The notes under the pieces are model-generated. The model did no database searches, was not told the origin of the DNA, and was given only the letters and a program-made list of their open reading frames with translations. Positions 18,124-34,253 of a DNA stretch of 34,571 nt are shown one piece after another. Position numbers and translations under genes: made by a program. Numbering within the stretch: position 1 is the stretch's first letter; every line of letters starts with the position of its first letter. This DNA is from a virus (lineage: Duplodnaviria > Heunggongvirae > Uroviricota > Caudoviricetes): the IMG/VR virus record IMGVR_UViG_2713896785_000021; one strand, 5' to 3'.

Positions 18124-18126
18124 GCG

Positions 18127-18839: not shown

Positions 18840-18938
18840 GACTACCTCTGAAAAGTCGGGCGGTGGACGCCGGTACAGCGTCAGGTGATTCACCCTCACT
18901 GACCGGCGTGCCGCCCTGGCGCGGGGCGCATTCGGTTG

Positions 18939-19682
18939 TTAACTGGCTTTCTTTTTCGGGCGTCCACGTTTTGCCGGTGTCACGCTCCGGGTCTTACGCG
19001 GGGTACGGGTGGCTGCTTTGGGCTGCGGCTCCGGCTTCGGTTTCAGCTCCCGCTCCAGTCGTTCAATCTCTTTTTTGACGCCTGCCTGACAGTCGAGCTG
19101 TGTCGCACGTTGCAGGTGAGCCAGCGCACCGGCGGCATCACCACCATCACGCAGAAACAGACCGGTGATTTTGTGCAGCTTTGCGCGCACTTCATCAGGC
19201 ATGTCAGCCGTGGCGGTCAGTTCAAGGGTCTCCGTCAGCAGGCGGGTATCCACAGACTCACCGGCAGCGTGGGCGCGCATGGCCGCGAGCGCCACCTCCT
19301 CGGTGAACATGTACGGCGGGGTGCGGCGGTGTTTACCCGGCATGGTCAGACCGTACTTCAGGGCATAACGGGCAATCTCCAGCGCACCGGCAATATCGCC
19401 GGTATCCAGACGCCACAGCATGACCGTCATCAGAATGTCATCCTGTGCACCTTTGCCCTGCTCCAGCACGCCGTTCACCCACGGCAACCAGAACGGCAGC
19501 AGTTCGCGTTTTTTCGCGGCCTTCAGCTCTTTTGAATAAATCGCTTTCAGTGTGCGCTGGTCTGCGGCCAGCTTGACCAGCATCTGCTCATAGACAGTTG
19601 CATGTCGCAGCGGGGCGGCTTCCCGCTGCGCGGTCATCGCTGCCGAGACCCGCATCATGTGGCGCTGTGCGGGACTCGTCAT
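18939..19682 (-). CDS. M: Terminase small (endonuclease) subunit gpM, 247 aa
   Basis: Length and position match P2 gpM. Confidence 0.88.
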   Translation of the reverse strand: MTSPAQRHMMRVSAAMTAQREAAPLRHATVYEQMLVKLAADQRTLKAIYSKELKAAKKRELLPFWLPWVNGVLEQGKGAQDDILMTVMLWRLDTGDIAGALEIARYALKYGLTMPGKHRRTPPYMFTEEVALAAMRAHAAGESVDTRLLTETLELTATADMPDEVRAKLHKITGLFLRDGGDAAGALAHLQRATQLDCQAGVKKEIERLERELKPKPEPQPKAATRTPRKTRSVTPAKRGRPKKKAS

Positions 19683-19685
19683 CGG

Positions 19686-20759
19686 TTACGCTCCCGGCTC
19701 TGCGGTCGCTTTAGCCGGTGTGGAGAAATCACCGACCTTAATTTTTTCCACCAGACAACCGGCGGCGTAGTCCTCCACCACGTAATCAATGTTCATTGAC
19801 TCGTAGTTCTCCACGCGGTCGAGTTTCGGGTTTTCCTCAATCACGCGGCGATGGCTGTCATCCATGTAGTAGATGGACAGGTTTTCCAGCTTCGTGATGA
19901 GCATCGCATCCGCCGGGAAGTACGGGACGCGTACCGCTGGCAGGTTACCGATGCGTTTCTGGCTGATGATGACGTCAGCGGCCAGCATTTCGCTGTTGTC
20001 CTGCTCCCTGTTGACGATGGGAAAATACTTGTCCGCCAGTAGCTGACGTCCCACAATCACCACAAGGTCAGGGTCTTCCTGATACCACGCCTCAATCAGG
20101 TTGTTGGTCGCATCCATCACCAGTGCATCAAGGCTGGCATAATCACCGCCCTTACCCACGCGGATAACCTCAGAGGTGGTGCGGCCTTCCTCGTCAGTGA
20201 CCTTGCTCATCACGCGCGCCGGGGCTTCATTGCGGTATTTCTGCAGCCAGCCGACCGCCACATCCTGCAGCATCGGATTGCTGCTGCGGTCAGAGGTTTC
20301 GGCACGCTTCACGCCGTTAAAACCGGCCATGATGAAATCAAGGGACTGGCGTTTGATAATGGCGTTACGGATACGGAGCTGGAAATCCTGATAACGCGCC
20401 CACAGGTCCAGCGTTTTGTAGCGGATATAAAAATCGAAGTTAATCTGGTCGCATTCGTACTTGTTTGACGCCAGCTTCGAGAAGTCCTTCGGCTGACGCT
20501 CGGTGCCACCGGCGGTGTCGGTGGTGCTGGCGATGGAGCCGGCGACACCAATACCAATTTTTTCCCCTTTCATTTCGCTGACCGGCACAATGTTGATGCG
20601 GGTCAGAAAATCAGAGGACTCCTGCATGGTGTTCATCAGGGTCTGGGTGACCGACGGTTCAACGGTGAATTTTTTCGACACATCACCGGCGTCGATGCCG
20701 TTCAGTTCGGCAACACGGGACAGGTAAGCATTAAATTTAAAGCGGGTTTCCTGGCGCAT
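19686..20759 (-). CDS. N: Major capsid protein gpN, 357 aa
   Basis: Length and position match P2 gpN. Confidence 0.9.
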   Translation of the reverse strand: MRQETRFKFNAYLSRVAELNGIDAGDVSKKFTVEPSVTQTLMNTMQESSDFLTRINIVPVSEMKGEKIGIGVAGSIASTTDTAGGTERQPKDFSKLASNKYECDQINFDFYIRYKTLDLWARYQDFQLRIRNAIIKRQSLDFIMAGFNGVKRAETSDRSSNPMLQDVAVGWLQKYRNEAPARVMSKVTDEEGRTTSEVIRVGKGGDYASLDALVMDATNNLIEAWYQEDPDLVVIVGRQLLADKYFPIVNREQDNSEMLAADVIISQKRIGNLPAVRVPYFPADAMLITKLENLSIYYMDDSHRRVIEENPKLDRVENYESMNIDYVVEDYAAGCLVEKIKVGDFSTPAKATAEPGA

Positions 20760-20817
20760 AGTTTTTCCTGAAGTTAAGGGTTAATCGTGAAGGTTTTCCC
20801 GGACTGACTGACGCCGG

Positions 20818-21672
20818 TCAGCAGTTCGTCATCAGGGCGTCACCGCCACCACCAGTGGCCTTGCTGCGGCGCTGCTGGGTCAGACTTTCGGTGTGGTCGA
20901 GACTGTTTTTCAGGCGGGTGAATGCCTGGCTGGTTTCATCCGCCCTGTCAGTCACATCCTGCTTAAGTGCGGAAAAGGCGGTTTCCATCTCAGCGAGGCG
21001 CTGCTCAGTGGCGCTCAGTTTTTCCTGCACATGTTCAGCAACAGCGGTCACCGCTTCATGCACGTCATTCAGACGGGCGTCATCGCTGGCCTGTTTGCAG
21101 CCAAAAATGGACTTCACCTTTTCGGTCAGGGCGGTGAACACGGTTTCAGGCAGGTCTTCAAATTCCAGCTCAACGGGCGTTGCCACTGAAATCAGGTTTT
21201 CAGGGCTTAATTTGAAGCGGTTCAGGGGGTTGTGTTTTGCCGTGCGGCAGAATTCCAGGTATTCCGTGCCGAGGCTTGCCGGGTCATCGGTGACGGCCAG
21301 ACCCACCAGATAACATTTGCCGGTATTGGCAAAGTTCGGCTGAATTTCCATTGAGGTATAGACCTTCTGCGCGGCCTTGTTCATCGCGATAAGGTCATCG
21401 GTCGGGGTGATTTTCGCAAACAGCGCCCATTTGCCTTTCAGCGCCGAATCATCGTCAATCTTTTCGGCCTTCAGTTCGGCCACATCGCCATAACGCTTAA
21501 AAATACCGTCAGGCAGGATGCCGCGCAGATGTTCCAGGTTAATGCGGCAACCATAGACTCGCGGGTCAAAGGTTTCGGCCATTTCCTGAATATCCTGCGC
21601 ACTGATGACACGCCCGTCACAGGTGTCACCCTCAACGCCGATACGAAAGAATTTTGAGACTTTTTTTGCCAT
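20818..21672 (-). CDS. O: Capsid scaffolding protein gpO, 284 aa
   Basis: Start set at the internal Met (MAKKVSKFFRIGVEGDTCDGR...) to give the canonical 284 aa; the track ORF is 22 codons longer. Confidence 0.85.
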   Translation of the reverse strand: MAKKVSKFFRIGVEGDTCDGRVISAQDIQEMAETFDPRVYGCRINLEHLRGILPDGIFKRYGDVAELKAEKIDDDSALKGKWALFAKITPTDDLIAMNKAAQKVYTSMEIQPNFANTGKCYLVGLAVTDDPASLGTEYLEFCRTAKHNPLNRFKLSPENLISVATPVELEFEDLPETVFTALTEKVKSIFGCKQASDDARLNDVHEAVTAVAEHVQEKLSATEQRLAEMETAFSALKQDVTDRADETSQAFTRLKNSLDHTESLTQQRRSKATGGGGDALMTNC

Positions 21673-21845
21673 TGTCAGGAGTCCTGAATAGTGATTAGAG
21701 GAGTCACATGTCGGCATCAGTTTCCCGACGATGCGCATCCTCCGCCATCAGTCCCGGATGGCTTATCACTGACACAACAGCACCTTAGCGAATCGCGGGG
21801 CGCGACTCAGTAGCCTTGCCGTGTATTCATCACGGCGAGGTATTC
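21673..21845. promoter_or_regulatory. Divergent O/P intergenic region, expected to hold the Ogr-dependent late promoters for the O and P operons
   Basis: Position by analogy with P2; contains a GTCGG-N9-CCGAC dyad; exact promoter elements not resolved. Confidence 0.35.
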
Positions 21846-23618
21846 ATGACCATCACCACAGACACCACTCTTTTACACGACCCGCGTCGTCAGGCGGCGC
21901 TGCTGTACTGGCAGGGGTTTTCCGTGCCGCAGATTGCCGCCATGTTGCAGATGAAACGCCCGACGGTGCAGAGCTGGAAACAGCGCGACGGCTGGGACAG
22001 CGTTGCCCCCATCAGCCGTGTCGAAATGAGTCTGGAAGCGCGGCTGACCCAGCTCATCATCAAACCGCAGAAAACCGGCGGTGACTTCAAGGAAATTGAC
22101 CTGCTCGGACGCCAGATTGAACGACTGGCACGGGTCAACCGTTACAGTCAGACCGGCAACGAGGCAGACCTTAATCCGAACGTCGCTAACCGCAACAAAG
22201 GCGGGCGTCGCAAACCGAAAAAGAATTTTTTCAGTGACGAGGCCATCGAAAAGCTGGAGCAGATTTTCTTTGAGCAGTCTTTCGAATATCAGTTGCACTG
22301 GTATCGCGCAGGGCTTGAGCACCGCATCCGCGATATCCTGAAATCCCGCCAGATTGGCGCGACGTTTTATTTTTCCCGCGAGGCGCTGCTGCGCGCCCTG
22401 AAAACCGGTCATAACCAGATTTTTCTGTCGGCCAGTAAAACGCAGGCGTATGTGTTCCGCGAATACATCATCGCCTTTGCCCGTCTGGTTGACGTTGACC
22501 TTACCGGTGACCCGATTGTCCTGGGCAATAACGGCGCAAAACTGATTTTTCTCGGCACCAACTCCAACACCGCGCAGAGCCATAACGGCGACCTGTACGT
22601 CGACGAGATTTTCTGGATCCCGAATTTTCAGGTACTGCGTAAGGTGGCATCAGGTATGGCCTCACAGAGCCACCTGCGCTCGACCTATTTCTCCACCCCG
22701 TCCACGCTGGCGCACGACGCCTACCCGTTCTGGTCCGGTGAACTGTTTAACCGGGGACGCGCCAGCGCCGCCGAACGCGTGGAAATCGACGTCAGTCATA
22801 ACGCCCTTGCCGGTGGGCTTCTCTGTGCGGACGGCCAGTGGCGGCAGATTGTCACCATTGAGGACGCCCTGAAAGGCGGCTGCACATTGTTCGACATTGA
22901 GCAGCTTAAACGCGAAAACAGCGCCGACGATTTTAAAAACCTGTTCATGTGTGAATTTGTTGACGACAAGGCATCGGTGTTCCCGTTCGAGGAGCTGCAA
23001 CGCTGCATGGTCGACACGCTGGAAGAATGGGAAGACTATGCGCCGTTTGCCGCCAATCCGTTCGGCTCCCGCCCGGTCTGGATTGGTTACGACCCGTCAC
23101 ACCGTGGCGACAGCGCCGGATGCGTGGTACTGGCACCGCCGGTGGTGGCCGGTGGCAAATTCAGAATACTTGAGCGTCACCAGTGGAAAGGCATGGACTT
23201 TGCCACTCAGGCGGAATCCATCCGCAAACTCACCGAAAAATACAACGTCGAATACATCGGTATTGATGCCACCGGCCTCGGTGTCGGCGTGTTCCAGCTC
23301 GTGCGCTCGTTCTATCCCGCCGCGCGCGATATCCGCTACACGCCGGAAATGAAAACCGCAATGGTGCTCAAGGCAAAAGACGTCATCCGCCGTGGCTGTC
23401 TGGAATATGACGTCAGCGCCACCGACATCACCAGCTCGTTTATGGCTATCCGCAAGACCATGACCAGCAGCGGACGCAGCGCCACTTATGAGGCCAGCCG
23501 CAGCGAGGAAGCCAGCCACGCCGACCTCGCCTGGGCGACCATGCACGCCCTGTTAAATGAGCCACTCACCGCCGGTATCAGCACCCCGCTGACATCCACC
23601 ATTCTGGAGTTTTACTGA
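21846..23618 (+). CDS. P: Terminase large (ATPase) subunit gpP, 590 aa
   Basis: Start at MTITTDTTLLHDPRR... with GAGGT Shine-Dalgarno gives the canonical 590 aa; the track ORF starts 10 codons earlier. Confidence 0.9.
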   Translation: MTITTDTTLLHDPRRQAALLYWQGFSVPQIAAMLQMKRPTVQSWKQRDGWDSVAPISRVEMSLEARLTQLIIKPQKTGGDFKEIDLLGRQIERLARVNRYSQTGNEADLNPNVANRNKGGRRKPKKNFFSDEAIEKLEQIFFEQSFEYQLHWYRAGLEHRIRDILKSRQIGATFYFSREALLRALKTGHNQIFLSASKTQAYVFREYIIAFARLVDVDLTGDPIVLGNNGAKLIFLGTNSNTAQSHNGDLYVDEIFWIPNFQVLRKVASGMASQSHLRSTYFSTPSTLAHDAYPFWSGELFNRGRASAAERVEIDVSHNALAGGLLCADGQWRQIVTIEDALKGGCTLFDIEQLKRENSADDFKNLFMCEFVDDKASVFPFEELQRCMVDTLEEWEDYAPFAANPFGSRPVWIGYDPSHRGDSAGCVVLAPPVVAGGKFRILERHQWKGMDFATQAESIRKLTEKYNVEYIGIDATGLGVGVFQLVRSFYPAARDIRYTPEMKTAMVLKAKDVIRRGCLEYDVSATDITSSFMAIRKTMTSSGRSATYEASRSEEASHADLAWATMHALLNEPLTAGISTPLTSTILEFY

Positions 23619-24652
23619 TGAGCAAGAAAAAAGGGAAAACACTGCAACCTGCGGCAAAAAAAATGACCGCCAGCGCCCCGAAAATGGAGGCATTCACCTT
23701 TGGCGAACCGGTGCCGGTACTCGACCGCCGTGACATTCTGGATTACGTCGAATGCATCAGTAACGGCAGATGGTATGAGCCACCGGTCAGCTTTACCGGT
23801 CTGGCAAAAAGCCTGCGTGCTGCCGTGCATCATAGCTCCCCGATTTACGTCAAACGCAATATTCTGGCCTCGACATTTATCCCGCATCCGTGGCTGTCCC
23901 AGCAGGATTTCAGCCGCTTTGTGCTGGATTTTCTGGTGTTCGGTAATGCGTTTCTGGAAAAGCGTTACAGCACTACCGGTAAAGTCATCAGACTGGAAAC
24001 CTCACCGGCAAAATATACCCGCCGTGGTGTGGAAGAGGATGTTTACTGGTGGGTGCCGTCCTTCAACGAGCCGACAGCCTTCGCGCCCGGTTCCGTGTTT
24101 CACCTGCTGGAGCCGGATATTAATCAGGAGCTGTACGGCCTGCCGGAATATCTCAGCGCCCTTAACTCTGCCTGGCTGAATGAGTCGGCCACGCTGTTCC
24201 GCCGCAAGTATTACGAAAACGGCGCACATGCCGGATACATCATGTACGTCACTGATGCCGTGCAGGATCGCAACGATATCGAAATGCTCCGCGAAAACAT
24301 GGTGAAGTCGAAAGGCCGCAACAACTTTAAAAATCTGTTTCTCTATGCCCCGCAAGGGAAAGCCGACGGCATTAAAATTATCCCGCTCAGTGAAGTGGCA
24401 ACGAAGGACGATTTTTTTAATATCAAAAAAGCCAGCGCCGCAGACCTGCTGGACGCGCACCGCATCCCTTTTCAGTTGATGGGCGGCAAGCCGGAGAACG
24501 TCGGGTCGCTGGGTGATATTGAGAAAGTGGCAAAGGTCTTTGTCCGCAATGAGCTTATCCCGTTACAGGACAGGATCCGCGAGATAAACGGCTGGCTCGG
24601 TCAGGAGGTCATCCGCTTTAAAAACTACTCACTGGACACCGACAACGGCTGA
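23618..24652 (+). CDS. Q: Portal (capsid vertex) protein gpQ, 344 aa
   Basis: Length and position match P2 gpQ; start overlaps the P stop. Confidence 0.9.
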   Translation: MSKKKGKTLQPAAKKMTASAPKMEAFTFGEPVPVLDRRDILDYVECISNGRWYEPPVSFTGLAKSLRAAVHHSSPIYVKRNILASTFIPHPWLSQQDFSRFVLDFLVFGNAFLEKRYSTTGKVIRLETSPAKYTRRGVEEDVYWWVPSFNEPTAFAPGSVFHLLEPDINQELYGLPEYLSALNSAWLNESATLFRRKYYENGAHAGYIMYVTDAVQDRNDIEMLRENMVKSKGRNNFKNLFLYAPQGKADGIKIIPLSEVATKDDFFNIKKASAADLLDAHRIPFQLMGGKPENVGSLGDIEKVAKVFVRNELIPLQDRIREINGWLGQEVIRFKNYSLDTDNG

Positions 24653-24656
24653 ACAT

Positions 24657-24680
24657 CGCCGCCTGCGGGCGGCTTTTTTA
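24657..24680 (+). terminator. Rho-independent terminator after Q (CGCCGCCTGCGGGCGGC hairpin followed by TTTTTT)
   Basis: GC-rich hairpin and T-run seen in sequence. Confidence 0.55.
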
Positions 24681-24821
24681 CACCCCGTCATCACGCCCTC
24701 ACACGCTCACCACCGCACAAAACACCCCGCAGACACACCAACGCCCCGGCGCACAATCCAAACGCCGTCACGACGCGCTGAGACGCTGAAAAAATAAAAT
24801 CAGCACCACCGCCAGCGCGCA

Positions 24822-24840
24822 GTGCTTTCCCCGCCTCGCC
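24822..24840. other. cos site: 19-nt cohesive-end sequence (reverse complement GGCGAGGCGGGGAAAGCAC)
   Basis: Exact match to the P2 cohesive-end sequence as I recall it, at the expected place between Q and the old/tin locus. Confidence 0.75.
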
Positions 24841-24994
24841 CGCCCGCTTCATGGGGCGGTTTTAATGCAGTTGCATATGTCTATCTAAATCACTCTAATG
24901 CCGGTCTAAATTTGTTTTTGAACTCCTCTCAACCTTATTCGAATTAATGCAGATAGATGCACTTATCGTTATCCTATTACATTCTCCCACAAGA

Positions 24995-26863
24995 TTATCG
25001 CCATTCTTGAGAATAACTTGCGTCAGACGATCTCGGACCGGGTACAGCAGGGTGAATTGAAATTCTTACGGGTATATTAAAAGCAGCACCAAACGCTATT
25101 GCATCTCCTCTTGGAAGCCCAGAAATCTGCCGAATCATTAACTCATTTCCACTTTCCATCGCATACCGTAAAGTCTGCAAATCACGCTCATTTGTCAGGC
25201 GCAACGAAAACCAATTTGCACACATTGCTAATACTGTTGATGAAAGCTCTGATGGTCGTTGTGTGCTCACAATAAGTGAACATTTAAATTTACGCCCTTC
25301 TTTAGCAAGTCTTTCATAAGCTTTAATTTGAGCATCAACTTCAGAATAAGGATCTCTTAAATAGTGGTGCGCCTCTTCAAGAAGTAACACGGTTGGAAAA
25401 GCTTTGTTTTGCCCCCTAAGAAAGAGAACTTCAGCAAACATTTCTAATAATGCACTTAACAGCATTGGAGCATGATCTTGTGAAAGATGCTTAAAATTAA
25501 CAATATGAATATTCCAGTCATTCTCCTCTCCCTTTTCTTTACCAAAGAAATAATCAACTTCCTGTCTCATAGCTAATTCCCAATGTTTGCCATCACTTAA
25601 TAATTCACCACCTCCATTTAAATCAACAACATACTTGAATCTAGAATCCTCTGATAACTGTTGAATTATCTTAATCAATGGCAGAACATTACCATAGCTA
25701 AAAGCATCTCGTTTACTAGATCCAGCTTTTCGCGAATCCGCCGCCACGCAACCAAACTCCGCAACCAAGTTAGCAATACTTTTAAACGGCGGCCATTTAT
25801 TTGCCTTACACAGCATCCCTCTTCTTAAGAAACTCAACCACGCAGATAAAAGCTCTTGCCCTTCATCTCTACAATCATCAAAAATATTAAATACGCCCCC
25901 TACTTCATCCTTAAGAAAGAATGAATCATCGGAAAAATGAACACTATTTATAGCATTAAGCGCATTTCTTAATGCAGGTAATTGTGTCTTATCACTAGGG
26001 CGTAGTAATTTTATCAACCCAGCAAATCCCAATGCTTGATAAGGTATTTTTCTATAGTAGTAATGTTCATTCTCAGAAAATATATCTCCTTTCTGTAGAG
26101 GTGGTTTTGGAAACTCTCCTTTTGGTAACTCACCTAAAATAGTATGTTTAACATTAGCAACACCTTCAAAAGCCTGAGAATACTCGCCATTAATATCAAA
26201 AATTACTATTCTTGCATTAGGGTACTGTTCTGAAATGCGGCGTGTAAGTAAAGCATTAAAATTAGATTTACCATATCCAGTACTGCCCAAAACAGCCATA
26301 TGCCTGGTTAGTAATTTATCAATGCTAGCTAAAATTTTAACTGATTTAGTCCTCGAATCTATTCCTAACTCAATTGCTTTATCCAGATCATTTTTATCAA
26401 TACTATATACGATATTTAAAAAATCAGATGTTAACGGGACAGCGGATGCTCCCAGAGCAGGTAACCTCCAGTCTTCCGAAACAAACACACATCCATCTAT
26501 ATCTCGTCTAATAAAACCTATTGCATAGGCTATTATTTGCCTTAACGGCATATCTGCTATATCTGATGTACCTATTTTTGCCTTATGTGCTTTATCAGCC
26601 TCGACAAATGCCATATCTGTAACTCGAGCCACAACCAGAATATTTCCGGCATCAAAACCGATCAAATCTCCAGGCTGAGTAACAGAACTAACACCATCCC
26701 TATGAGAGGCGAGCCTACCTTGCAATCCTTCATGAAGATTTATCCTTATTTTTTCGCCCTCCAGACCAACGACATACCCAATAGCAGATAATTCAGATAG
26801 TTTAAAATGCGACATTCCCTTCCCCTTTAGACAATTTAGAAATAGCTTCAACCAAGTCATCAA
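24995..26863 (-). CDS. herA: HerA-like (FtsK/HerA superfamily) ATPase, about 606-622 aa, partner of the SIR2 protein
   Basis: Walker A (GSTGYGKSN), Walker B (LLLEEAHHY) and TQRP motifs; AT-rich. An alternative start at 26815 (MSHFKLSEL..., preceded by GGGGAAGGGA) overlaps the SIR2 stop by 14 nt. Confidence 0.8.
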   Translation of the reverse strand: MMTWLKLFLNCLKGKGMSHFKLSELSAIGYVVGLEGEKIRINLHEGLQGRLASHRDGVSSVTQPGDLIGFDAGNILVVARVTDMAFVEADKAHKAKIGTSDIADMPLRQIIAYAIGFIRRDIDGCVFVSEDWRLPALGASAVPLTSDFLNIVYSIDKNDLDKAIELGIDSRTKSVKILASIDKLLTRHMAVLGSTGYGKSNFNALLTRRISEQYPNARIVIFDINGEYSQAFEGVANVKHTILGELPKGEFPKPPLQKGDIFSENEHYYYRKIPYQALGFAGLIKLLRPSDKTQLPALRNALNAINSVHFSDDSFFLKDEVGGVFNIFDDCRDEGQELLSAWLSFLRRGMLCKANKWPPFKSIANLVAEFGCVAADSRKAGSSKRDAFSYGNVLPLIKIIQQLSEDSRFKYVVDLNGGGELLSDGKHWELAMRQEVDYFFGKEKGEENDWNIHIVNFKHLSQDHAPMLLSALLEMFAEVLFLRGQNKAFPTVLLLEEAHHYLRDPYSEVDAQIKAYERLAKEGRKFKCSLIVSTQRPSELSSTVLAMCANWFSLRLTNERDLQTLRYAMESGNELMIRQISGLPRGDAIAFGAAFNIPVRISIHPAVPGPRSSDASYSQEWR

Positions 26864-28049
26864 CAGTATTTTCTCTTGGGAACAACACCGGATAAGGAAG
26901 ATGTTTCACAAAACTATCAAAGTAAGCATCTGCCCCCCCACCCACGATAGTCACTTGATTGAATTGCATATTTTTTAAAGCATCAATTGCCTTTTCACCT
27001 TCAGAAGCAACGCCTCTACTAACTTTATCTAAAGCATTCTCCAGATCAGGGTAATAAATAACAACATGAAATGACGGATTTAACAAAGCACCAAAAACAA
27101 TTCTGTTTATATGATAATCACCAAACCCAAACCCATTAATAAACAAAGCGGTTTGAGGTTTTGACAAAAACTCGCCAAAACGTCTAAACATTTCACCGTA
27201 AACAAAACCAATTGTATGGCTATATTTATTAGCCCCCGGATAAATTAAATGTTGACCATAGTAAAAACCGTCACCATTAATAATATTTTTAATGTAATTA
27301 TCATATGCCTGAGATGCACTTATCTCATTAACTATTAAAAAATCATCCTGATACCATGTAAGAGAGCCATGCAATTTATATAGATAAGCGTGATAATGAC
27401 CAAATCTAGCCTCCCCTTTTGCATTGACATTTCTAAATGCCAAATCAAAATTTTGAGGATAAAATTGTCTTGTATGCAATCCTGAAAAACCATTAAATAG
27501 CTGAATTCCTAAATCTTCAGCTGCCCACTCTAATGCCAAATCATAGTTGGTAGTAAAAAGTGCCGGAGCCGATTGTCCCGGCTGCCTATTTGAAATCAAC
27601 TTTGAAATTAATTCTTTATGAGACTTAAACTGTTTTTTCTTCCCTTGATTTTTACAACCAAACTCTTCTCCAGTTAACAATGCAGCCTTTGTTACTTGTT
27701 TATACAAAGCACTTAATATTAAACTAATTTCTTTTTGTTCGTCTTCATTACGTCTTGTTTTGGCCACAGACAAGAATTTAGTTACTTCATCAATTAGAAG
27801 CTCAACATTAACTATATCTTGTTCAGATTCAGTTTTGTCAACCAATAAGTATTTTTCTAGTAACAAATTCAATAGATCAGGATGTTCATATTTAAAAAAC
27901 TGCCATACCTGCTTCATAGTTTGGCCGCCACATCCGACCGATGCTCCCGCGCCTAAAAGAACCCCTACATTATCCAACTGACATAACGAATAAAGATGAG
28001 AATAAAAATCATCTTCAGATATTATCTTACCACCTTGATAAATAACCAT
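26802..28049 (-). CDS. SIR2-family (SIR2_2-like) NAD+-dependent effector protein, 415 aa
   Basis: Gly-rich Rossmann motif GVLLGAGASVGCG, then TTNYD and HGS motifs typical of defence-associated SIR2 domains; AT-rich; AGGGA Shine-Dalgarno. Confidence 0.8.
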   Translation of the reverse strand: MVIYQGGKIISEDDFYSHLYSLCQLDNVGVLLGAGASVGCGGQTMKQVWQFFKYEHPDLLNLLLEKYLLVDKTESEQDIVNVELLIDEVTKFLSVAKTRRNEDEQKEISLILSALYKQVTKAALLTGEEFGCKNQGKKKQFKSHKELISKLISNRQPGQSAPALFTTNYDLALEWAAEDLGIQLFNGFSGLHTRQFYPQNFDLAFRNVNAKGEARFGHYHAYLYKLHGSLTWYQDDFLIVNEISASQAYDNYIKNIINGDGFYYGQHLIYPGANKYSHTIGFVYGEMFRRFGEFLSKPQTALFINGFGFGDYHINRIVFGALLNPSFHVVIYYPDLENALDKVSRGVASEGEKAIDALKNMQFNQVTIVGGGADAYFDSFVKHLPYPVLFPRENTVDDLVEAISKLSKGEGNVAF

Positions 28050-28103
28050 AATTATCCCTTTGAATTGAAGTCTGATTGTTCAAACACCTACAACGGCCCC
28101 ATA

Positions 28104-30416
28104 TTATGTGAAGTTCACACGAGACTCAATACTCCATAAATTCAAAGAGTTAACATCATCATAAAATCGATCATCAATTGGAAATTTGAATGACATATCA
28201 CCATAATTTACTCTCGCTCCTCGAACCAACGCCTCAAGCTCCCATCGCTGAGGCCTGATACCATTCTGAACAAGGTCAACGCGGATACGGGTGATTTGCA
28301 TTCGTTCCGACCTGGTCAGTCTGGCCGACGGTGCTATTTCATGTAGTTTTAACGGGCTTCCGTTTCTTTGCTGACGATTTGGTGTTTTCAGGCCGTGTTT
28401 TAATGCATCCCTGAGCGCCCTCACAACCTCCGGGTCACTCCATTCGATAACACCGTCATCTACCAGATTAAGCACTGCTGCGGCATGTTCAGAAGGTGTG
28501 GGAGCCGGTAACGAAGTATCACTGCTGGCAGGCTTTCCACAGTTATTGACAGGACTCCGAGGCGCGGCGATGCCGCTTTTTAAAGTCAAAGGCTCAAAGA
28601 CCGGCACTTTCGGAACAATGCGCCAGTCCGTCGTTCTGGTGATATGAATATGACGCGCGCCGAGATGCGGCGCGTAAATGCCGACCACTCTCTCGACTTC
28701 TTCCTCATACTCGTTAACGTCATCCGACGGGCTACGGGCGACCCTGACAGTCTGACAATCGCGCGGGACATTTGCCCCACCCTGCGCGCTGATATACAAC
28801 GCAAAATCACCACTGTCTGCGGCGGCGCGTGCAGCCTCGACGCGCTCGTCAAACTCATCAGCAATGCTGACGCCGCGAGGCAATTTGCGTAGTTCACGGT
28901 AAGCCCCCATTGTCGGCAGACCAACCGTTTTAAATTGCGGGATGCGCCACGTTGACGCCCATGCGGTAACAGCCGCGGCAGTGTCTTTCAGCGGTCTGCC
29001 GGTATCATTATCGAGCTGACCATCCAGTGCATATCCGTCGATATTTTTTGAGATGTATTTCGCGATATACCCCGCAGCACCGCCCCGGTTAAGGTGTTTC
29101 GCCTGAAAACGGTTTCGCGCGGCTCCTCTTTCGTCGCCATCCTCTTTGAGCGCGTAGCGACGCATGATTTCAATAATCTGGTTACGCTGGCGTGGATTAC
29201 AAAAAAGCATCATATGCCAGTGCGGCGTTCCGTCGTGGTGTGGCTCGACGACTCGCAAACCGTAGGCCTGTAAATCATTATCCTTGAATGCCGTGCGCAT
29301 CAGGCTCCAGATGCGGCAGAGATAACGCTGAGCATCCTTTGGATTAAATGCCTCATCATTCCAGCCGTGATTTAGCTGGACGGTTTTACTTTCGCCTTTT
29401 CCGACCTGACGTGTCGGGTGATACTTTGACGGCGCGGTCAGCGTGATAAACATCCCCACATCACCCTCTGCGGCGGCGTAACGCTCAATACCGGCAATGG
29501 TGTTCATCAGCTCCATCCGGCGAATTTCAGGATTAGAAATACTGCCCATCACCTTACTGATAAGGTCGATGCGTTCGCCGGTTTCCCTGTTTTCAAGGTC
29601 ACACGATTTAAGAAATTCCAGATTTGCCTGGCGGCGCGCACGCACATCACGAATGGCATGTTTACTGGCATAAGGAGAACGGTCTTTATTGACCTCCCCG
29701 ACAGCAATCAGTAACGCCTCATGCCAGCGCATACGCTGGCCTTTAAGCTGATGAGTCCACCACTCATCGTTAAACAGGCGGGCAATAGCAGAATATGCCT
29801 GCCTCGTGGTCATCTGTCCTTTACGGTATTTTTTCCAGTAGAGAGGGGAAATATTGAAAGCACGTGCAGCGCCAGCAACATGACCATAGAGGTGAGCCTG
29901 CGCCTCATCCGTAAACAGCGATTCTTTCTCGCCATGCGCATCCACCCAGGCATCGCAGAGTTCCTCATACATCATGAAAAGCTGTGATGAGATACGGGCG
30001 GCAAACTTTTTCAGCTCCTTGTCATTCATTCCCGGCAGGCGCGCATAGTGGTCACGCTCTGCCAGAAACAGCAACGACGCGTCGGTGTTCATTTCATGGC
30101 GCTGATTCACACGCTCAATGCGCGGCCATAAACGACGCTGAAAAGTGGATGTGAGGAAATAAAACCCGTGCACCGGGCTTTTATTGCGCCGGATGTAGTC
30201 ATAGCGTGAAGTAAACAGCGAGCGCAAAAAGTAAGGCAGGCGGTTAATCGTGGATAAAACACCTTGCACCTGACGCATCTCGTCACGTGTAAGGGGTCTT
30301 TCGCGCCCGACAGCCTCGCGTGGCGCGTTCCATGCATAAGCACCGGTAAACGCCTTACCGGTGCCTGCAGCAAATGCTGACGGAGGGACAAAACGCCCGG
30401 AGGCTTTAACGGCCAT
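28104..30416 (-). CDS. A: Replication initiation protein gpA (rolling-circle nickase), about 770 aa
   Basis: Start set at MAVKASGRFVPPSAFAAGTG...; long collinear match to P2 gpA as I recall it; the last ~35 codons are AT-rich and differ from what I recall of P2. Confidence 0.88.
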   Translation of the reverse strand: MAVKASGRFVPPSAFAAGTGKAFTGAYAWNAPREAVGRERPLTRDEMRQVQGVLSTINRLPYFLRSLFTSRYDYIRRNKSPVHGFYFLTSTFQRRLWPRIERVNQRHEMNTDASLLFLAERDHYARLPGMNDKELKKFAARISSQLFMMYEELCDAWVDAHGEKESLFTDEAQAHLYGHVAGAARAFNISPLYWKKYRKGQMTTRQAYSAIARLFNDEWWTHQLKGQRMRWHEALLIAVGEVNKDRSPYASKHAIRDVRARRQANLEFLKSCDLENRETGERIDLISKVMGSISNPEIRRMELMNTIAGIERYAAAEGDVGMFITLTAPSKYHPTRQVGKGESKTVQLNHGWNDEAFNPKDAQRYLCRIWSLMRTAFKDNDLQAYGLRVVEPHHDGTPHWHMMLFCNPRQRNQIIEIMRRYALKEDGDERGAARNRFQAKHLNRGGAAGYIAKYISKNIDGYALDGQLDNDTGRPLKDTAAAVTAWASTWRIPQFKTVGLPTMGAYRELRKLPRGVSIADEFDERVEAARAAADSGDFALYISAQGGANVPRDCQTVRVARSPSDDVNEYEEEVERVVGIYAPHLGARHIHITRTTDWRIVPKVPVFEPLTLKSGIAAPRSPVNNCGKPASSDTSLPAPTPSEHAAAVLNLVDDGVIEWSDPEVVRALRDALKHGLKTPNRQQRNGSPLKLHEIAPSARLTRSERMQITRIRVDLVQNGIRPQRWELEALVRGARVNYGDMSFKFPIDDRFYDDVNSLNLWSIESRVNFT

Positions 30417-30681
30417 ATGAGCCAAAAGCCTCTGAACAACGCTTGCTGAGTTGCTCAACCTGCGCGTTTAAATCAGCAAAAGACTTTGCGCTTCCGGTCA
30501 GAATATCGTGATGCATCAGGCCGGAAACGAGCTGGCTTAATTTCGGGTAATAACCAACCACCGCCAGCCATTCCTGACCGGCGTTTTTACCGCTTTCCGC
30601 TCTCTTTTTCTCGTGGAGAATAAACTGGAAGCTGTCACTGGTAACGACATAACGTTCGCCAATTTCAATACGAATACTCAT
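30406..30681 (-). CDS. Small early protein (P2 orf83 position), 91 aa
   Basis: ORF with gene overlaps typical of the P2 early operon; assignment by position. Confidence 0.55.
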   Translation of the reverse strand: MSIRIEIGERYVVTSDSFQFILHEKKRAESGKNAGQEWLAVVGYYPKLSQLVSGLMHHDILTGSAKSFADLNAQVEQLSKRCSEAFGSYGR

Positions 30682-30902
30682 GCCGTTCTCCGGTAATGTT
30701 TGTTTTTTGCTTCAAAGACTGACTGACAGGAAACACAACGCGTGGCTGACGGATAAGCCGCACGACGGGCAGCAGGTATTGGCGCGTCACACTCTTCGCA
30801 AACCAGCGCAGAAGCACCGCAATGTTTTACCCTTGCCGCGTTAATCTGGCGCTCCAGTAATTCAGCCTGTTGTTCCTGAATGAAATCTACGTTGTCCGGC
30901 AT
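30678..30902 (-). CDS. TraR/DksA-family C4 zinc-finger protein (P2 orf82 position), 74 aa
   Basis: CxxC ... CxxC motif (CEECDAPIP...CVSCQ) in a small basic protein. Confidence 0.65.
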   Translation of the reverse strand: MPDNVDFIQEQQAELLERQINAARVKHCGASALVCEECDAPIPAARRAAYPSATRCVSCQSVFEAKNKHYRRTA

Positions 30903-31207
30903 TACCAGTTCCTTTTGTCGTTCAGTTTCTTAAATTCATCAGCGCAATAGCTGGCGAGTTCTGTCGTTAATTTTGTCAGTTCATCCACTGAGGAAATTTG
31001 CTTGTGAAATACAGCGCGTTTCACAAGTAAATTGATCACATCAGACAGGAGGTTTAATTCGCTCTGATAAATCGCGATAACAGATTCAGTTATGTCGCGC
31101 TTTTCTTTATCAAGACCAAGTTGAATAAGAGACAAATCGCCATTTTCCATAACGGCGATTTTTAAGGCGTTATTCAGTAATACAACTGAATGAGAACAGG
31201 ACATCAA
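30902..31207 (-). CDS. Small early protein (P2 orf81 position), 101 aa
   Basis: ORF in operon context; assignment by position. Confidence 0.5.
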
Positions 31208-31461
31208 AGCACCTCCCCACGAGACAATCCGATATTGTGAAATTTTTCCGACTCCTGACTGAGCAGCTCGACTATCTCCACGCGGGATAACTCCGCCTTT
31301 GTGATGTGGCGAATCATGGCGTCAAGATGAGAAGAAAAGCGCGTCGCAGCGTCGGCCTGTGCTTCGGTTCTGGCCTGTTGCAGCAGTAATGCGTATATAC
31401 CGCACTGATTTTCAGAAACTGTATGCATGACTTTCTCCAGGCAAAAAGAAGCCCCGCACAA
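31204..31461 (-). CDS. Small early protein (P2 orf80 position), 85 aa
   Basis: ORF in operon context; assignment by position. Confidence 0.5.
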
Positions 31462-31491
31462 TTAAGTGCGTTAAAAACTCTGGTTAATTAC

Positions 31492-31992
31492 TTAATGCAG
31501 ATATTGCTCTGGTTTTACCGACGTCAGAATTGTCGGTGCATACTCAAACAGACTGAATAATTCACGTAATGCACGGAATAAAGCATCACGCCAGTAACAT
31601 GATTCTTCATTAATTCGCCAGTATGGCTGGTTAAATTCTTTTTCTGTCAGTCGTGCGTGCATAAATAAAGTGCGACGCTGACTGACTGTTAAAAAACTAA
31701 TATATGCATACTCACTTGCGCCAACCTGACGGCGTTTTGAGAATGCCCCACGCAATTCATCAATTGCACATACCAGTCGTTCACGTTCGACGTCGTTCAT
31801 TTCTTCAAAACGCATCGTTGCGTGACGCTGTTTTAACTGCGCATGGAAGCAAACCGTTAGCCGTTCACGTTCCATCATCTGATTATAATAATCGCATGTC
31901 TCCTGCCAGCGAGGGACGGCCAGATGCTTACCAATTATCCGGCGCATAGTTGCTGGCTGTTTTTCAACGAGATTGAGCGTCATCACTGTCAT
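31492..31992 (-). CDS. B: Replication protein gpB (DnaB helicase-loader-like), 166 aa
   Basis: Translation MTVMTLNLVEKQPA...RRIIGKHLAVPRWQ matches P2 gpB; start could also be 31998. Confidence 0.85.
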   Translation of the reverse strand: MTVMTLNLVEKQPATMRRIIGKHLAVPRWQETCDYYNQMMERERLTVCFHAQLKQRHATMRFEEMNDVERERLVCAIDELRGAFSKRRQVGASEYAYISFLTVSQRRTLFMHARLTEKEFNQPYWRINEESCYWRDALFRALRELFSLFEYAPTILTSVKPEQYLH

Positions 31993-32183
31993 TTCCATAC
32001 CCTCCGGCTTTTCAGAAAGGTCAGAGCCTTTTTTAACGGACTCTGTTTTTTGGTGCGGATAATGATTCCCTTACGCCCCTTACCGTGGGTGATGTTGAAG
32101 TCAATCGCCCTGGGGCTTTCGTTACGCAGTAACTGAGCAATACAACGAGGCTCATTCATACGGTTCTCCTTAACGTGGTTCAC
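31989..32183 (-). CDS. Small early protein (P2 orf78 position), 64 aa
   Basis: ORF between cox and B; assignment by position. Confidence 0.5.
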   Translation of the reverse strand: MNHVKENRMNEPRCIAQLLRNESPRAIDFNITHGKGRKGIIIRTKKQSPLKKALTFLKSRRVWK

Positions 32184-32445
32184 CGAGACCTAACCACATC
32201 AACCAGCCGTCACGAATCTCTTTAGGGCGGCTTTCATAAGCCAGTTTTAGTCCGTTATTCCATGCCGGAAGGTATACCCAATATTCACCTGCACGACCTG
32301 AAGCTGATTGTGGATCGGTCATATCAATTACAGGCAGCTTTCCTTTATCGATCATCCGACGAACCGCTCCTGTCGATTTTCCTATTAGTTTTGCGAACTC
32401 CTGATAAGGAATCGCATCAGTCATGAGTGTTACTTGCTTGCTCAT
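32170..32445 (-). CDS. cox: Cox, excisionase and lytic-cycle repressor of Pc, 91 aa
   Basis: Length and position match P2 Cox; GGAGGA Shine-Dalgarno upstream. Confidence 0.85.
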   Translation of the reverse strand: MSKQVTLMTDAIPYQEFAKLIGKSTGAVRRMIDKGKLPVIDMTDPQSASGRAGEYWVYLPAWNNGLKLAYESRPKEIRDGWLMWLGLGEPR

Positions 32446-32559
32446 GTCGTCCTCCAGCCCTCATGAATTGCGTTTAATGCCTTATAATGCCTTTTAGTGC
32501 CCACATCCAAGCACTAAACAATCTACATCTAAACTAAATACTATTGAGATCTAAACACC
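32446..32559. promoter_or_regulatory. Immunity switch region between cox and C: direct repeats TAATGCCTT x2 flanking a perfect TATAAT (about 32474..32493) and CTAAAC repeats
   Basis: Repeats and -10 hexamer seen in sequence; by analogy with the P2 Pe/Pc operator region; individual operators not assigned. Confidence 0.5.
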
Positions 32560-32859
32560 ATGTCAAACACGATAAGCGAGAAGATAGTCTTAATGCGAAA
32601 ATCAGAGTATTTGAGCAGACAACAACTTGCTGATTTAACAGGGGTTCCGTATGGCACGCTGAGTTACTATGAAAGTGGTCGTTCAACACCTCCAACAGAT
32701 GTCATGATGAACATCCTGCAGACCCCACAATTCACCAAATACACTTTATGGTTCATGACCAATCAGATCGCTCCTGAGTCCGGGCAAATTGCGCCCGCTC
32801 TCGCACACTTTGGGCAAAACGAAACAACGTCGCCCCACTCCGGTCAAAAGACTGGTTAA
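32560..32859 (+). CDS. C: Immunity repressor C, 99 aa
   Basis: Length and position match P2 C; small helix-turn-helix-like protein divergent from cox. Confidence 0.85.
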   Translation: MSNTISEKIVLMRKSEYLSRQQLADLTGVPYGTLSYYESGRSTPPTDVMMNILQTPQFTKYTLWFMTNQIAPESGQIAPALAHFGQNETTSPHSGQKTG

Positions 32860-32974
32860 CAATTCATCGTGAATATATTCATCACAAGTGCCTACTATTG
32901 GTGGCTAAATTTCAGCCACCACGAAAAAAGCGATTAGTAGTCGCCAAAAAACACACCACTCGGAGGGTTTTCTG

Positions 32975-33988
32975 ATGGCAATCAAAAAACTCGATGATGG
33001 TCGATATGAAGTGGACATCCGCCCTACTGGACGTAATGGAAAACGCATCCGTAGGAAGTTTGATAAGAAAAGCGAAGCTGTCGCTTTCGAGAAATACACG
33101 TTGTACAACCACCACAATAAAGAATGGCTATCAAAACCAACAGACAAGCGACGTCTGTCGGAGCTGACACAGATCTGGTGGGATTTAAAGGGTAAACACG
33201 AAGAGCATGGGAAATCTAATCTTGGAAAAATTGAAATCTTCACAAAAATAACGAATGACCCATGCGCATTTCAAATTACGAAATCGCTTATCAGCCAGTA
33301 CTGCGCCACCCGAAGAAGTCAGGGTATTAAACCTTCGAGTATCAATCGTGATTTAACATGTATTAGCGGCATGTTTACAGCCCTGATTGAAGCGGAGTTA
33401 TTCTTTGGTGAGCACCCTATCAGAGGGACAAAAAGGCTTAAGGAGGAAAAACCAGACACAGGCTATCTCACGCAGGAAGAAATTGCCTTACTGCTTGCTG
33501 CTCTTGACGGCGACAATAAAAAGATTGCGATTCTTTGCCTGAGTACTGGAGCACGTTGGGGAGAAGCAGCTCGTTTGAAAGCAGAAAATATCATCCATAA
33601 CCGCGTCACGTTTGTTAAAACGAAAACAAACAAACCACGCACCGTCCCGATCTCAGAGGCTGTTGCCAAAATGATCGCGGATAACAAACGAGGTTTTTTA
33701 TTCCCTGATGCTGATTACCCTCGCTTCAGACGAACAATGAAAGCAATAAAACCGGATTTGCCAATGGGGCAAGCCACACATGCACTAAGGCACAGCTTTG
33801 CCACTCATTTCATGATTAATGGAGGAAGTATTATCACGCTACAACGGATACTAGGTCACACGCGGATTGAGCAAACTATGGTTTACGCTCACTTTGCGCC
33901 AGAGTACCTTCAGGACGCCATTTCTCTTAATCCGCTAAGAGGTGGTACTGAGGCCGAGAGTGTCCACACAGTGTCCACAGTAGAGTAA
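32975..33988 (+). CDS. int: Tyrosine integrase Int, 337 aa
   Basis: Translation MAIKKLDDGRYEVDIRPTG... matches P2 Int; C-terminal catalytic residues in HxLRHSFATH and VYAHF context. Confidence 0.92.
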   Translation: MAIKKLDDGRYEVDIRPTGRNGKRIRRKFDKKSEAVAFEKYTLYNHHNKEWLSKPTDKRRLSELTQIWWDLKGKHEEHGKSNLGKIEIFTKITNDPCAFQITKSLISQYCATRRSQGIKPSSINRDLTCISGMFTALIEAELFFGEHPIRGTKRLKEEKPDTGYLTQEEIALLLAALDGDNKKIAILCLSTGARWGEAARLKAENIIHNRVTFVKTKTNKPRTVPISEAVAKMIADNKRGFLFPDADYPRFRRTMKAIKPDLPMGQATHALRHSFATHFMINGGSIITLQRILGHTRIEQTMVYAHFAPEYLQDAISLNPLRGGTEAESVHTVSTVE

Positions 33989-34067
33989 CGTTTAAGGGCT
34001 TTCAGTGGTAATTTATGCCGCTCAAACCCGCATTGTACCGTTGAAAGCCCCTACTGGTGACACCCTA

Positions 34068-34094
34068 AATCTCCCTTACACGGGCTTATTTTTT
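34068..34094. repeat. Prophage att core copy on the int side (27 bp, identical to 1507..1533)
   Basis: Exact 27-bp direct repeat located 80 bp downstream of the int stop. Confidence 0.85.
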
Positions 34095-34253
34095 TATGCA
34101 TAAGCCCTATCTCTGGTAACCGTCTTCCATTGACCACATCGATAGAATCCTCCTTCATAGCACGATGCCTTTCACTTATCGGCATCGTGCTCCCACAGGT
34201 TCCGGCTACGCACAGCCAGAACGCGCATATTTGACGCTTACCAAAAAATATTC

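What the first reader, a model, noticed from the sequence alone, without database searches (positions are those of the whole stretch)
24995..28049. Two-gene SIR2 + HerA-like ATPase module replaces old/tin at the P2 variable locus
Between gene A and cos, where P2 carries old and tin, the prophage has an AT-rich two-gene operon. The upstream 415-aa protein has the SIR2 signature motifs GAGAS, TTNYD and HGS. The downstream ~606-622 aa protein has HerA/FtsK-type Walker A (GSTGYGKSN), Walker B (LLLEEAHH) and TQRP motifs. The genes overlap or are tightly coupled, and composition contrasts sharply with the flanking phage genes. This matches the SIR2-HerA type of NAD+-depleting anti-phage defence system, here as prophage cargo.
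Basis: partly seen in the sequence, partly recalled or inferred. Interest (0 to 1): 0.75.

Follow-up and report, generated by a model that had tools for sequence, protein, structure and literature searches.

The report
Known SIR2-HerA defence in P2 prophage
The two AT-rich genes between gene A and cos of this P2-like E. coli prophage are an intact copy of the well-studied SIR2-HerA ("Nezha") NAD+-depleting anti-phage system, in the same prophage hotspot where it has already been catalogued, so the finding is correct but ordinary.

Summary
A 415-aa SIR2 gene (26802..28049, -) overlaps a 606-aa HerA gene (24995..26815, -) by 14 nt. Both lie in a 3.3-kb block of 36% GC (24870..28201) between cos (24822..24840) and P2 gene A, where P2 carries old and tin. 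PADLOC SIR2-HerA profiles match full length (3e-188 and 7e-272). The proteins are 81% and 77% identical, end to end, to the cryo-EM-solved E. coli SIR2-HerA/Nezha complex (PDB 8j4u, 8su9), and all catalytic motifs are intact. dN/dS against two other alleles is about 0.06. It is not new. The exact protein pair (WP_000237502 + WP_000017834) is listed at the P2 gpA-gpQ hotspot in Rousset et al. 2022 (Table S5A). That paper ranks the class as system 14, with 188 occurrences, labelled "SIR2 + HerA (Gao et al., 2020)". The reference system from E. coli NCTC11129 sits at the same prophage locus in the same orientation. Forty-six of 5,426 complete E. coli genomes carry this type, in three old allele lineages, and 15 carry the window's lineage. 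Still untested are this allele's phage range, its trigger and its promoter. Interest is low.

The parts
24995..26815 (-). herA: 606-aa HerA/FtsK-type ATPase of the SIR2-HerA system. Walker A is GSTGYGKS at 177-184, Walker B is LLLEEAHH at 477-484, and STQRP is at 517-521.
   Evidence: ORF. ATG preceded by GGGGAAGGGA. RefSeq CDS WP_000017834.1. PADLOC HerA PDLC02185 7e-272. Pfam DUF87 8e-22. 77% identical to 8j4u_M over residues 1-605. Motif positions.
26802..28049 (-). sir2: 415-aa SIR2-family NADase effector. It has GAGAS at 33-37, the TTNYD motif at 166-170 (N168, D170) and the HGS motif at 227-229 (H227). Its last 14 nt overlap the start of herA.
   Evidence: ORF. AAGGGA 7 nt upstream of the ATG. 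RefSeq WP_000237502.1. PADLOC SIR2 PDLC02186 3e-188. Pfam SIR2_2 2e-09. 81% identical to 8j4u_A, ungapped, residues 1-415. Motif positions.
24870..28201 (-). The whole non-P2 cargo block, 3,332 bp at 36% GC. It takes the place of P2 orf91-tin-old.
   Evidence: blastn against P2 NC_001895: homology ends at 24869 and resumes at 28202. GC profile. P2 annotation of the interval.
28050..28201 (-). AT-rich region upstream of sir2 that arrived with the cargo. It is presumed to hold the operon's own promoter. The best candidate is TTGAGT (28129..28124), 17 nt, TAATAT (28106..28101), which matches only 8 of 12 consensus positions. The 3' tail and stop codon of the gene A ORF overlap this region.
   Evidence: Sequence. 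Weak three-allele homology, including an invariant TAAT at the candidate -10. The consensus scan found no promoter of 9/12 or better on the - strand here, and no terminator between A and sir2. The promoter is inferred, not shown.
24822..24840 (.). P2 cos: the 19-nt cohesive end, present as the reverse complement of GGCGAGGCGGGGAAAGCAC. The conserved GC hairpin at 24840..24859 and the TTTTAATGCA that follow mark the cos-side edge of the hotspot.
   Evidence: Exact match. Identical to the annotated cosR of P2. Hairpin. All three alleles join the cos flank at the same point.
28104..30416 (-). Flank: P2 gene A (replication endonuclease). It is 96% identical at the nucleotide level to P2 A down to 28202. 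Its last ~33 codons (28104..28201) are encoded by the cargo.
   Evidence: In NCTC11129 the corresponding gene A is annotated as missing its C-terminus.
23618..24652 (+). Flank: portal gene (P2 Q), the other edge of the gpA-gpQ hotspot.

Best explanation
This is a Nezha-type (E. coli cluster 1) SIR2-HerA abortive-infection system, carried as accessory cargo at the cos-proximal gpA-gpQ hotspot of a complete P2-like prophage integrated between yegQ and yegR.

The mechanism below is inferred by close homology to the solved E. coli complex. None of it was measured for this allele.
1. SIR2 forms a dodecamer that docks onto a HerA hexamer, giving a roughly 1-MDa complex.
2. [quoted passage not shown] Physiological ATP holds the NADase and nuclease in check.
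3. Infection by another phage lowers ATP or otherwise triggers the complex.
4. SIR2 then hydrolyses cellular NAD+, the infected cell stops growing, and the incoming phage fails to propagate. This protects the lysogen population and the prophage.

Shown here: gene identity, intact catalytic motifs, purifying selection and genomic context. Inferred: expression in the lysogen from a promoter in the AT-rich 150 bp upstream of sir2, complex formation, NAD+ depletion and phage range.
For: - Profiles: PADLOC SIR2 3e-188 and HerA 7e-272, both full length. Pfam SIR2_2 and DUF87 are above their gathering scores.
- Solved structures: end-to-end matches to PDB 8j4u, 8su9 and related entries, at 6e-231 and E=0. 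Identity is 81% and 77%.
- Catalytic motifs are intact: N168, D170 and H227 in SIR2, and Walker A and Walker B in HerA. They correspond to the N/D/H triad of PsSIR2 (PMC11472057) and to N226/H287 of SaSir2 (PMC11514289).
- dN/dS against two other alleles is 0.06-0.07, with synonymous sites saturated.
- The pair is conserved at 97-100% nucleotide identity in 15 complete E. coli genomes.
- The reference system from NCTC11129 (WP_021577683/2) protects against lambda (PMC11514289). It sits at the identical P2 locus in the identical orientation.
- Rousset 2022 lists this very protein pair at the P2 hotspot and labels the class 'SIR2 + HerA (Gao et al., 2020)'.
- The mechanism summary comes from PMC13434337 and PMC11514289.
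Against: - No experiment exists for this allele, which differs from the tested Nezha proteins at about 20% of residues.
- It scores just under NCBI's equivalog cut-offs: SIR2 499.2 against 500, and HerA 701.4 against 800.
- No convincing sigma-70 promoter was found upstream. The best candidate matches 8 of 12 positions.
- The phage trigger of Nezha-type systems is still undefined in the literature (PMC13434337).
Confidence: 0.9

Rival explanations
1. The cassette is a silent or decaying passenger. The ORFs are intact, but they are not expressed in the lysogen or no longer work as a defence.
For: No promoter matching 9/12 or better lies on the - strand upstream of sir2. NCBIfam scores fall under the equivalog cut-offs. 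The adjoining gene A has lost its native C-terminus. No cultured phage genome in INPHARED carries a close homologue.
Against: dN/dS is 0.06-0.07 for both genes. All catalytic motifs are intact. Both starts have good ribosome-binding sites, and the 14-nt overlap suggests translational coupling. The upstream 120-150 bp travels with the module in all three alleles and has a conserved TAAT. One related genome does show an IS903B-disrupted copy (H34), so decay would be visible, and it is not seen here.
Confidence: 0.06
2. It belongs to one of the mechanistically different E. coli Sir2-HerA subtypes (types I-III). In type III, phage SSB (Gp2.5) triggers a HerA nickase and an ATP checkpoint, instead of the Nezha helicase and nuclease logic.
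For: The domain pair is the same. E. coli is known to hold eight Sir2-HerA clusters (PMC13434337).
Against: Types I-III share only about 13-22% identity with Nezha. The window's proteins are 81% and 77% identical to Nezha, above the 70% clustering threshold of that study. The best PADLOC models are the same pair that match full length.
Confidence: 0.02
3. The pair serves the prophage's own life cycle instead of defence, for example a HerA-type DNA translocase helping replication or packaging next to cos.
For: It lies adjacent to cos and to the replication gene A and is co-directional with the early operon, with no terminator between A and sir2. HerA/FtsK ATPases are DNA translocases.
Against: P2 itself lacks the pair and carries the exclusion genes old and tin there. 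The locus is a documented variability hotspot holding 169 alternative systems (PMC9122126). The closest homologue is an experimentally validated defence. The composition is foreign.
Confidence: 0.02

Closest known systems
E. coli SIR2-HerA / Nezha (EcSIR2-HerA, WP_021577683 + WP_021577682, strain NCTC11129; PDB 8j4u, 8su9, 8sub, 8suw, 8sxx, 8uae, 8uaf)
   Same: The gene order (sir2 then herA) and the 14-nt overlap are the same. The SIR2 is the same length (415 aa). Alignment is full length and almost gap-free, at 81% and 77% identity. The catalytic motifs are the same, and both carry the C-terminal SIR2 extension. The genomic place and orientation match: the gpA-gpQ hotspot of a P2-like prophage.
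   Different: About a fifth of residues differ. The differences cluster in HerA alignment columns ~211-420 and in SIR2 61-90 and 331-360. Synonymous sites are saturated, so this is an old sister lineage and not a recent variant. HerA is 606 aa here against 610 aa. The upstream non-coding region is only weakly alignable. This allele has not been tested.
'SIR2 | DUF87' system no. 14 of the P2 gpA-gpQ hotspot catalogue (Rousset et al. 2022, Cell Host Microbe, Tables S5A and S5B)
   Same: It is the same object. The window's protein accessions WP_000237502 + WP_000017834 appear in Table S5A as 'SIR2_2 + DUF87'. The class has 188 occurrences and is labelled 'SIR2 + HerA (Gao et al., 2020)'.
   Different: Nothing structural differs. 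The representative HerA sequence printed in S5B differs from the window's at several positions. The SIR2 of the ~84%-identical L002-type lineage (WP_016242007) is also listed in Table S5A.
P2 old-tin exclusion cassette
   Same: It occupies the same slot between gene A and cos. It has the same general role, lysogenic-conversion genes that exclude other phages, and the same foreign composition.
   Different: The proteins are unrelated: Old is an OLD-family ATPase-nuclease, and Tin blocks the growth of T-even phages. The orientation is opposite, because old-tin is transcribed from a cos-proximal promoter towards A. P2 also carries orf91 there.
SIR2-HerA of Paenibacillus sp. 453MF and Staphylococcus aureus; E. 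coli Sir2-HerA types I-III
   Same: They share the two-gene architecture, NADase activation on assembly with HerA, and ATP inhibition (PMC11472057, PMC11514289, PMC13434337).
   Different: The sequence relationship is distant. The window's proteins match these chains only over part of their length and far more weakly than 8j4u: the SIR2 chains at 1e-15 (8yhx_G) and 2e-10 (8w9l_A), and the best non-E. coli HerA chain at 2e-34 (8wiv_A). PsSIR2 and PsHerA are 28% and 23% identical to the E. coli pair. Stoichiometries differ (PsSIR2 shifts to a tetradecamer, and SaSir2 is a dimer when alone). Type III uses a nickase and SSB triggers.

Membership tests
SIR2-HerA defence system (PADLOC / DefenseFinder definition) | A SIR2-family protein matching the system-specific SIR2 profile | tested here: met
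   PDLC02186, 3.2e-188, residues 1-412 on profile positions 3-408 of 412. Pfam SIR2_2, 38.1 bits against a cut-off of 24.5.
SIR2-HerA defence system (PADLOC / DefenseFinder definition) | A HerA-family ATPase matching the system-specific HerA profile | tested here: met
   PDLC02185, 7.1e-272, profile positions 2-580 of 585. Pfam DUF87 (HerA central domain), 78.8 bits against a cut-off of 23.2.
SIR2-HerA defence system (PADLOC / DefenseFinder definition) | The two genes are adjacent, on the same strand and operonic | tested here: met
   sir2 is 26802..28049 and herA is 24995..26815, both on the - strand, with a 14-nt overlap.
Nezha / E. coli Sir2-HerA cluster 1 (Zhang et al. 2026, CD-HIT at 70% identity) | At least 70% amino-acid identity to the Nezha SIR2 (8J4U) and to its HerA | tested here: met
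   SIR2 is 336/415 = 81%. HerA is 464/605 = 77%. The criterion is given in PMC13434337.
Nezha / E. coli Sir2-HerA cluster 1 | Intact catalytic residues: the sirtuin N/D/H triad, and the HerA Walker A lysine and Walker B acidic pair | tested here: met
   TTNYD 166-170, HGS 227-229, GSTGYGKS 177-184 and LLLEEAHH 477-484. All are identical in the ungapped alignment with 8j4u.
Nezha / E. coli Sir2-HerA cluster 1 | SIR2 dodecamer plus HerA hexamer assembly, ATP-inhibited NADase and nuclease, NAD+ depletion and abortive infection | not testable with these tools
   Inferred from 77-81% identity to the solved and assayed complex. The HerA N-terminus (columns 1-90) and the SIR2 C-terminal extension, which form the interface in EcSIR2-HerA, are among the better conserved parts.
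NCBIfam equivalogs NF042942 (SIR2_antiphage) and NF042943 (HerA_antiphage) | Whole-protein score at or above the curated cut-off | tested here: not met
   SIR2 scores 499.2 against 500, and HerA 701.4 against 800. This is an annotation threshold tuned on the other alleles, not a biological criterion. It explains why RefSeq calls these proteins only 'SIR2 family protein' and 'ATP-binding protein', while the other two lineages get 'anti-phage-associated'.
P2 gpA-gpQ (old/tin) hotspot cargo (Rousset et al. 2022) | Located between the replication gene A and the portal gene Q, next to cos, in a P2-like phage | tested here: met
   cos at 24822..24840. Portal at 23618..24652 and gene A at 28104..30416. 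P2 homology breakpoints at 24869 and 28202. The full P2 gene set from ogr to int is present. The exact accessions appear in Table S5A.
E. coli Sir2-HerA types I-III | Sequence membership in those clusters, which are ~13-22% identical to Nezha | tested here: not met
   The window's proteins are 81% and 77% identical to Nezha, so they cannot belong to clusters that distant.

The most novel reading that the evidence does not exclude
The window's allele may be functionally distinct. It is a third, anciently diverged Nezha lineage: synonymous sites are saturated, and protein differences concentrate in HerA columns ~211-420 and in two SIR2 surface segments. It could therefore recognise a different trigger or have a different phage range from the studied NCTC11129 system. 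Separately, the cassette is co-directional with gene A, no terminator was found between them, and gene A reads into the cassette. It might therefore also be transcribed from the P2 early promoter during induction or superinfection by a related P2, which would give an inducible layer of control not described for Nezha.
Probability: 0.2. Interest if true: 0.3.

Novelty: already known. Interest (0 to 1): 0.1.

Why it matters
It matters little beyond correct annotation. RefSeq names the two genes only "SIR2 family protein" and "ATP-binding protein", because they fall just under NCBI's equivalog cut-offs. They can confidently be re-labelled as a Nezha-type SIR2-HerA defence system. The locus is one more example of the established rule that the cos-proximal slot of P2-like prophages exchanges anti-phage cassettes. 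The three deeply diverged alleles sit in nearly identical phage backbones. They would be a convenient natural series for mapping what sets the specificity of SIR2-HerA, whose trigger is still unknown for the Nezha type.

Tried and rejected
- I looked for the module in deposited phage genomes with tblastn of SIR2 against 50,697 INPHARED records. Only three distant hits at 28% identity came back. The module is so far seen only in prophages, and no cultured P2-like phage carrying it was found.
- I scanned for a sigma-70 promoter and a terminator. Nothing matching 9/12 or better lies on the - strand upstream of sir2. I found an 8/12 candidate by eye, and it remains speculative. The only terminator-like hairpin after herA is the conserved cos-flank hairpin, whose T-run is on the other strand.
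- I tried to read Shen et al. 2023 (PMC11418745) for the E. coli mutant residue numbers, but it is not held. Tang et al. 2023 is not in the library either. I took the catalytic residues from the Paenibacillus and S. aureus papers and mapped them by motif.
- I considered type I-III membership and rejected it on identity.
- I did not run structure prediction, fold searches or the large protein and metagenome searches. Identity of 77-81% to a solved complex makes them uninformative, and their cost was not justified.
Full report
**What is in the sequence**

Two ORFs occupy the stated interval on the minus strand.
- The upstream one, 26802..28049, encodes 415 aa.
- The downstream one runs from a TTG at 26863 to a stop at 24995, which would give 622 aa.
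- The real start of the second gene is the ATG at 26815, giving 606 aa. A GGGGAAGGGA stretch precedes it, RefSeq uses it, and residue 1 then aligns with residue 1 of the solved homologue.
- With that start the genes overlap by 14 nt. An AAGGGA lies 7 nt before the SIR2 ATG.

- SIR2: GAGAS 33-37, TTNYD 166-170, HGS 227-229.
- HerA: GSTGYGKS 177-184, LLLEEAHH 477-484, STQRP 517-521.

GC falls to 0.32-0.40 across 25000-28000, against 0.52-0.59 on either side. The figures are 0.34 for SIR2, 0.38 for HerA, 0.36 for the whole insert and 0.52 for the rest of the window.

**Where it is**

The window is a complete P2-like prophage, from ogr to int, integrated between yegQ and yegR. The 3.6-kb stretch around the finding (window 24700..28300) is 100% identical to E. 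coli 2013C-3264.
- The 19-nt P2 cohesive end lies at 24822..24840 and is identical to the annotated cosR of P2.
- Against P2 NC_001895, homology ends at 24869 on the cos side and resumes at 28202 inside gene A, at 96% nucleotide identity.
- The foreign block is therefore 24870..28201. It stands where P2 has orf91, tin and old.

- The operon runs in the same direction as gene A, towards cos. P2 old-tin is transcribed from a cos-proximal promoter back towards A.
- The junction lies inside the gene A ORF, so its last ~33 codons and its stop are insert DNA. In strain NCTC11129 the equivalent gene A is annotated as lacking its C-terminus.

**What it is**

- Pfam gives SIR2_2 (2e-09) and the HerA central domain DUF87 (8e-22), both above their gathering scores.
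- The PADLOC models for the SIR2-HerA system match full length, at 3e-188 and 7e-272.
- Against the PDB, both proteins match the E. coli SIR2-HerA complex end to end (8j4u, 8su9, 8sub, 8suw, 8sxx, 8uae, 8uaf), with E-values of 6e-231 and 0.
- Identity is 336/415 (81%, ungapped) for SIR2 and 464/605 (77%) for HerA.
- Zhang et al. 2026 (PMC13434337) clustered E. coli Sir2-HerA systems at 70% identity into eight clusters. Cluster 1 is Nezha/8J4U, and types I-III are only 13-22% identical to it. The window's system is therefore a cluster-1 (Nezha-type) member and not one of the divergent types.
- It scores marginally under NCBI's equivalog cut-offs, 499.2 against 500 and 701.4 against 800. This explains the bland RefSeq names.

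**Is it functional?**

Two other allele lineages exist at the same prophage slot.
- One is about 77.6% identical at the nucleotide level (L002; 84% protein identity for both proteins).
- The other is the NCTC11129 reference type, at about 73.6% nucleotide identity.

Between lineages dN/dS is 0.06-0.07 for both genes, with synonymous sites saturated. These are old lineages under strong purifying selection, not decaying passengers.

Differences concentrate in HerA alignment columns ~211-420 and in SIR2 61-90 and 331-360. The catalytic cores, the HerA N-terminus and the SIR2 C-terminal extension are better conserved.

In all, 46 of 5,426 complete E. coli genomes carry a Nezha-type module. All copies are chromosomal, and 15 are of the window's lineage at 97-100% identity.

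**How it most likely works**

This is inferred by homology and was not measured here. The literature describes the following for the E. coli system.
- ATP at sub-physiological concentration inhibits the NADase.
- Infection is accompanied by a fall in ATP, which releases NAD+ hydrolysis and causes abortive infection (PMC13434337; PMC11514289; PMC11472057).
- The NCTC11129 system protects against lambda.
- The sirtuin N/D/H residues and the HerA Walker A lysine are required in the homologues studied. All are present here.
- The trigger of the Nezha type is still undefined.

**Expression**

The P2 early operon is repressed in a lysogen, so the cassette needs its own promoter to defend the lysogen.
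- The consensus scan found nothing matching 9/12 or better on the minus strand upstream of sir2, and no terminator between A and sir2.
- By eye, the best candidate is TTGAGT, 17 nt, TAATAT at 28129..28101, which matches 8 of 12 positions and overlaps the gene A stop codon.
- The three alleles share weak homology over the ~120-150 bp upstream of the ATG, including an invariant TAAT at that candidate -10. The upstream region therefore seems to travel with the cassette.
- This step is inference only.
- On the other side, all three alleles join the conserved cos flank at the same nucleotide.

**Novelty**

There is none of substance.
- Rousset et al. 2022 (PMC9122126) analysed exactly this gpA-gpQ slot in 18,150 E. 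coli P2-like loci and curated 169 systems.
- Their Table S5B lists 'SIR2 | DUF87' as system 14, with 188 occurrences, labelled 'SIR2 + HerA (Gao et al., 2020)'.
- Their Table S5A contains the window's own accession pair, WP_000237502 + WP_000017834.
- The reference system used for the defence assays and the cryo-EM structures (WP_021577683/2) lies at the same locus of a P2-like prophage, in the same orientation.
- The finding is thus a correct reading of a known system in its known native context. What remains untested is this allele's phage range, trigger and promoter.

**Rivals**

- A silent or decaying cassette is disfavoured by the dN/dS values, the intact motifs, the ribosome-binding sites and the conservation across genomes.
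- Membership of types I-III is excluded by identity.
- A role in the phage's own life cycle is disfavoured, because P2 lacks the genes and the slot is a documented exchange hotspot.

**Seen in passing**

- Two further AT-rich orphan genes sit at the other classical P2 variable positions: 8565..9158 (-) and 14615..15400 (+). Neither has a Pfam hit above the curated cut-off (the second gives only a sub-threshold DUF6535 match) or any PADLOC assignment.
- No deposited phage genome carries a close homologue of this SIR2.
- One related genome has an IS903B insertion in the cassette (H34).

Noticed in passing
window 8565..9158 (-): An AT-rich orphan gene (GC ~0.34-0.39 against ~0.55 in the flanks) of 197 aa, with an N-terminal hydrophobic segment. 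It lies between the tail-fibre assembly gene and the sheath gene, which is the position of P2 Z/fun (T5 exclusion). It has no Pfam or PADLOC hit, and RefSeq calls it hypothetical WP_001443367.1. It is a candidate uncharacterised exclusion or defence moron.
   Followed up: partly
window 14615..15400 (+): An AT-rich orphan gene (GC ~0.33-0.36 against ~0.6 in the flanks) of 261 aa, with several hydrophobic, membrane-like segments. It is on the opposite strand to the surrounding tail genes and lies between S and V, the P2 orf30 position. Pfam gives only a sub-threshold DUF6535 hit, and PADLOC gives nothing.
   Followed up: partly
window 28104..28201 (-): The last ~33 codons and the stop codon of the gene A (replication endonuclease) ORF are encoded by the AT-rich cargo and not by P2-homologous DNA, replacing the last ~24 codons of P2 gpA. 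In NCTC11129 the same junction leaves gene A annotated as 'missing C-terminus'. I did not assess whether the prophage can still replicate.
   Followed up: partly
window 24995..28049 compared with L002 and L005: Three SIR2-HerA allele lineages have saturated synonymous divergence (dS of 1.7 or more), yet they sit in P2 backbones that are ~96-97% identical at the nucleotide level right up to the junctions. This indicates cassette exchange from an old allele pool. The variable positions cluster in HerA columns ~211-420.
   Followed up: partly
H34, NZ_CP142710.1 2956136..2960250: In E. coli T16R the L002-type SIR2-HerA cassette matches in two pieces spread over about 4.1 kb. An IS5-like IS903B transposase is annotated under the match, so this looks like a copy disrupted by an insertion sequence.
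   Followed up: no
window 1..34571 compared with NZ_CP027544.1: Coordinates mapped from the 100%-identical region drift by 35 nt between about window 9158 and 14615, relative to the E. coli 2013C-3264 record. The window therefore carries a small indel relative to that record, or it comes from a closely related strain.
   Followed up: no
phages collection (INPHARED, 50,697 records): No deposited phage genome encodes a close homologue of this SIR2. The best hits are 28% identical over about half the protein. Nezha-type SIR2-HerA is so far documented only in integrated P2-like prophages and P4-like satellites.
   Followed up: yes
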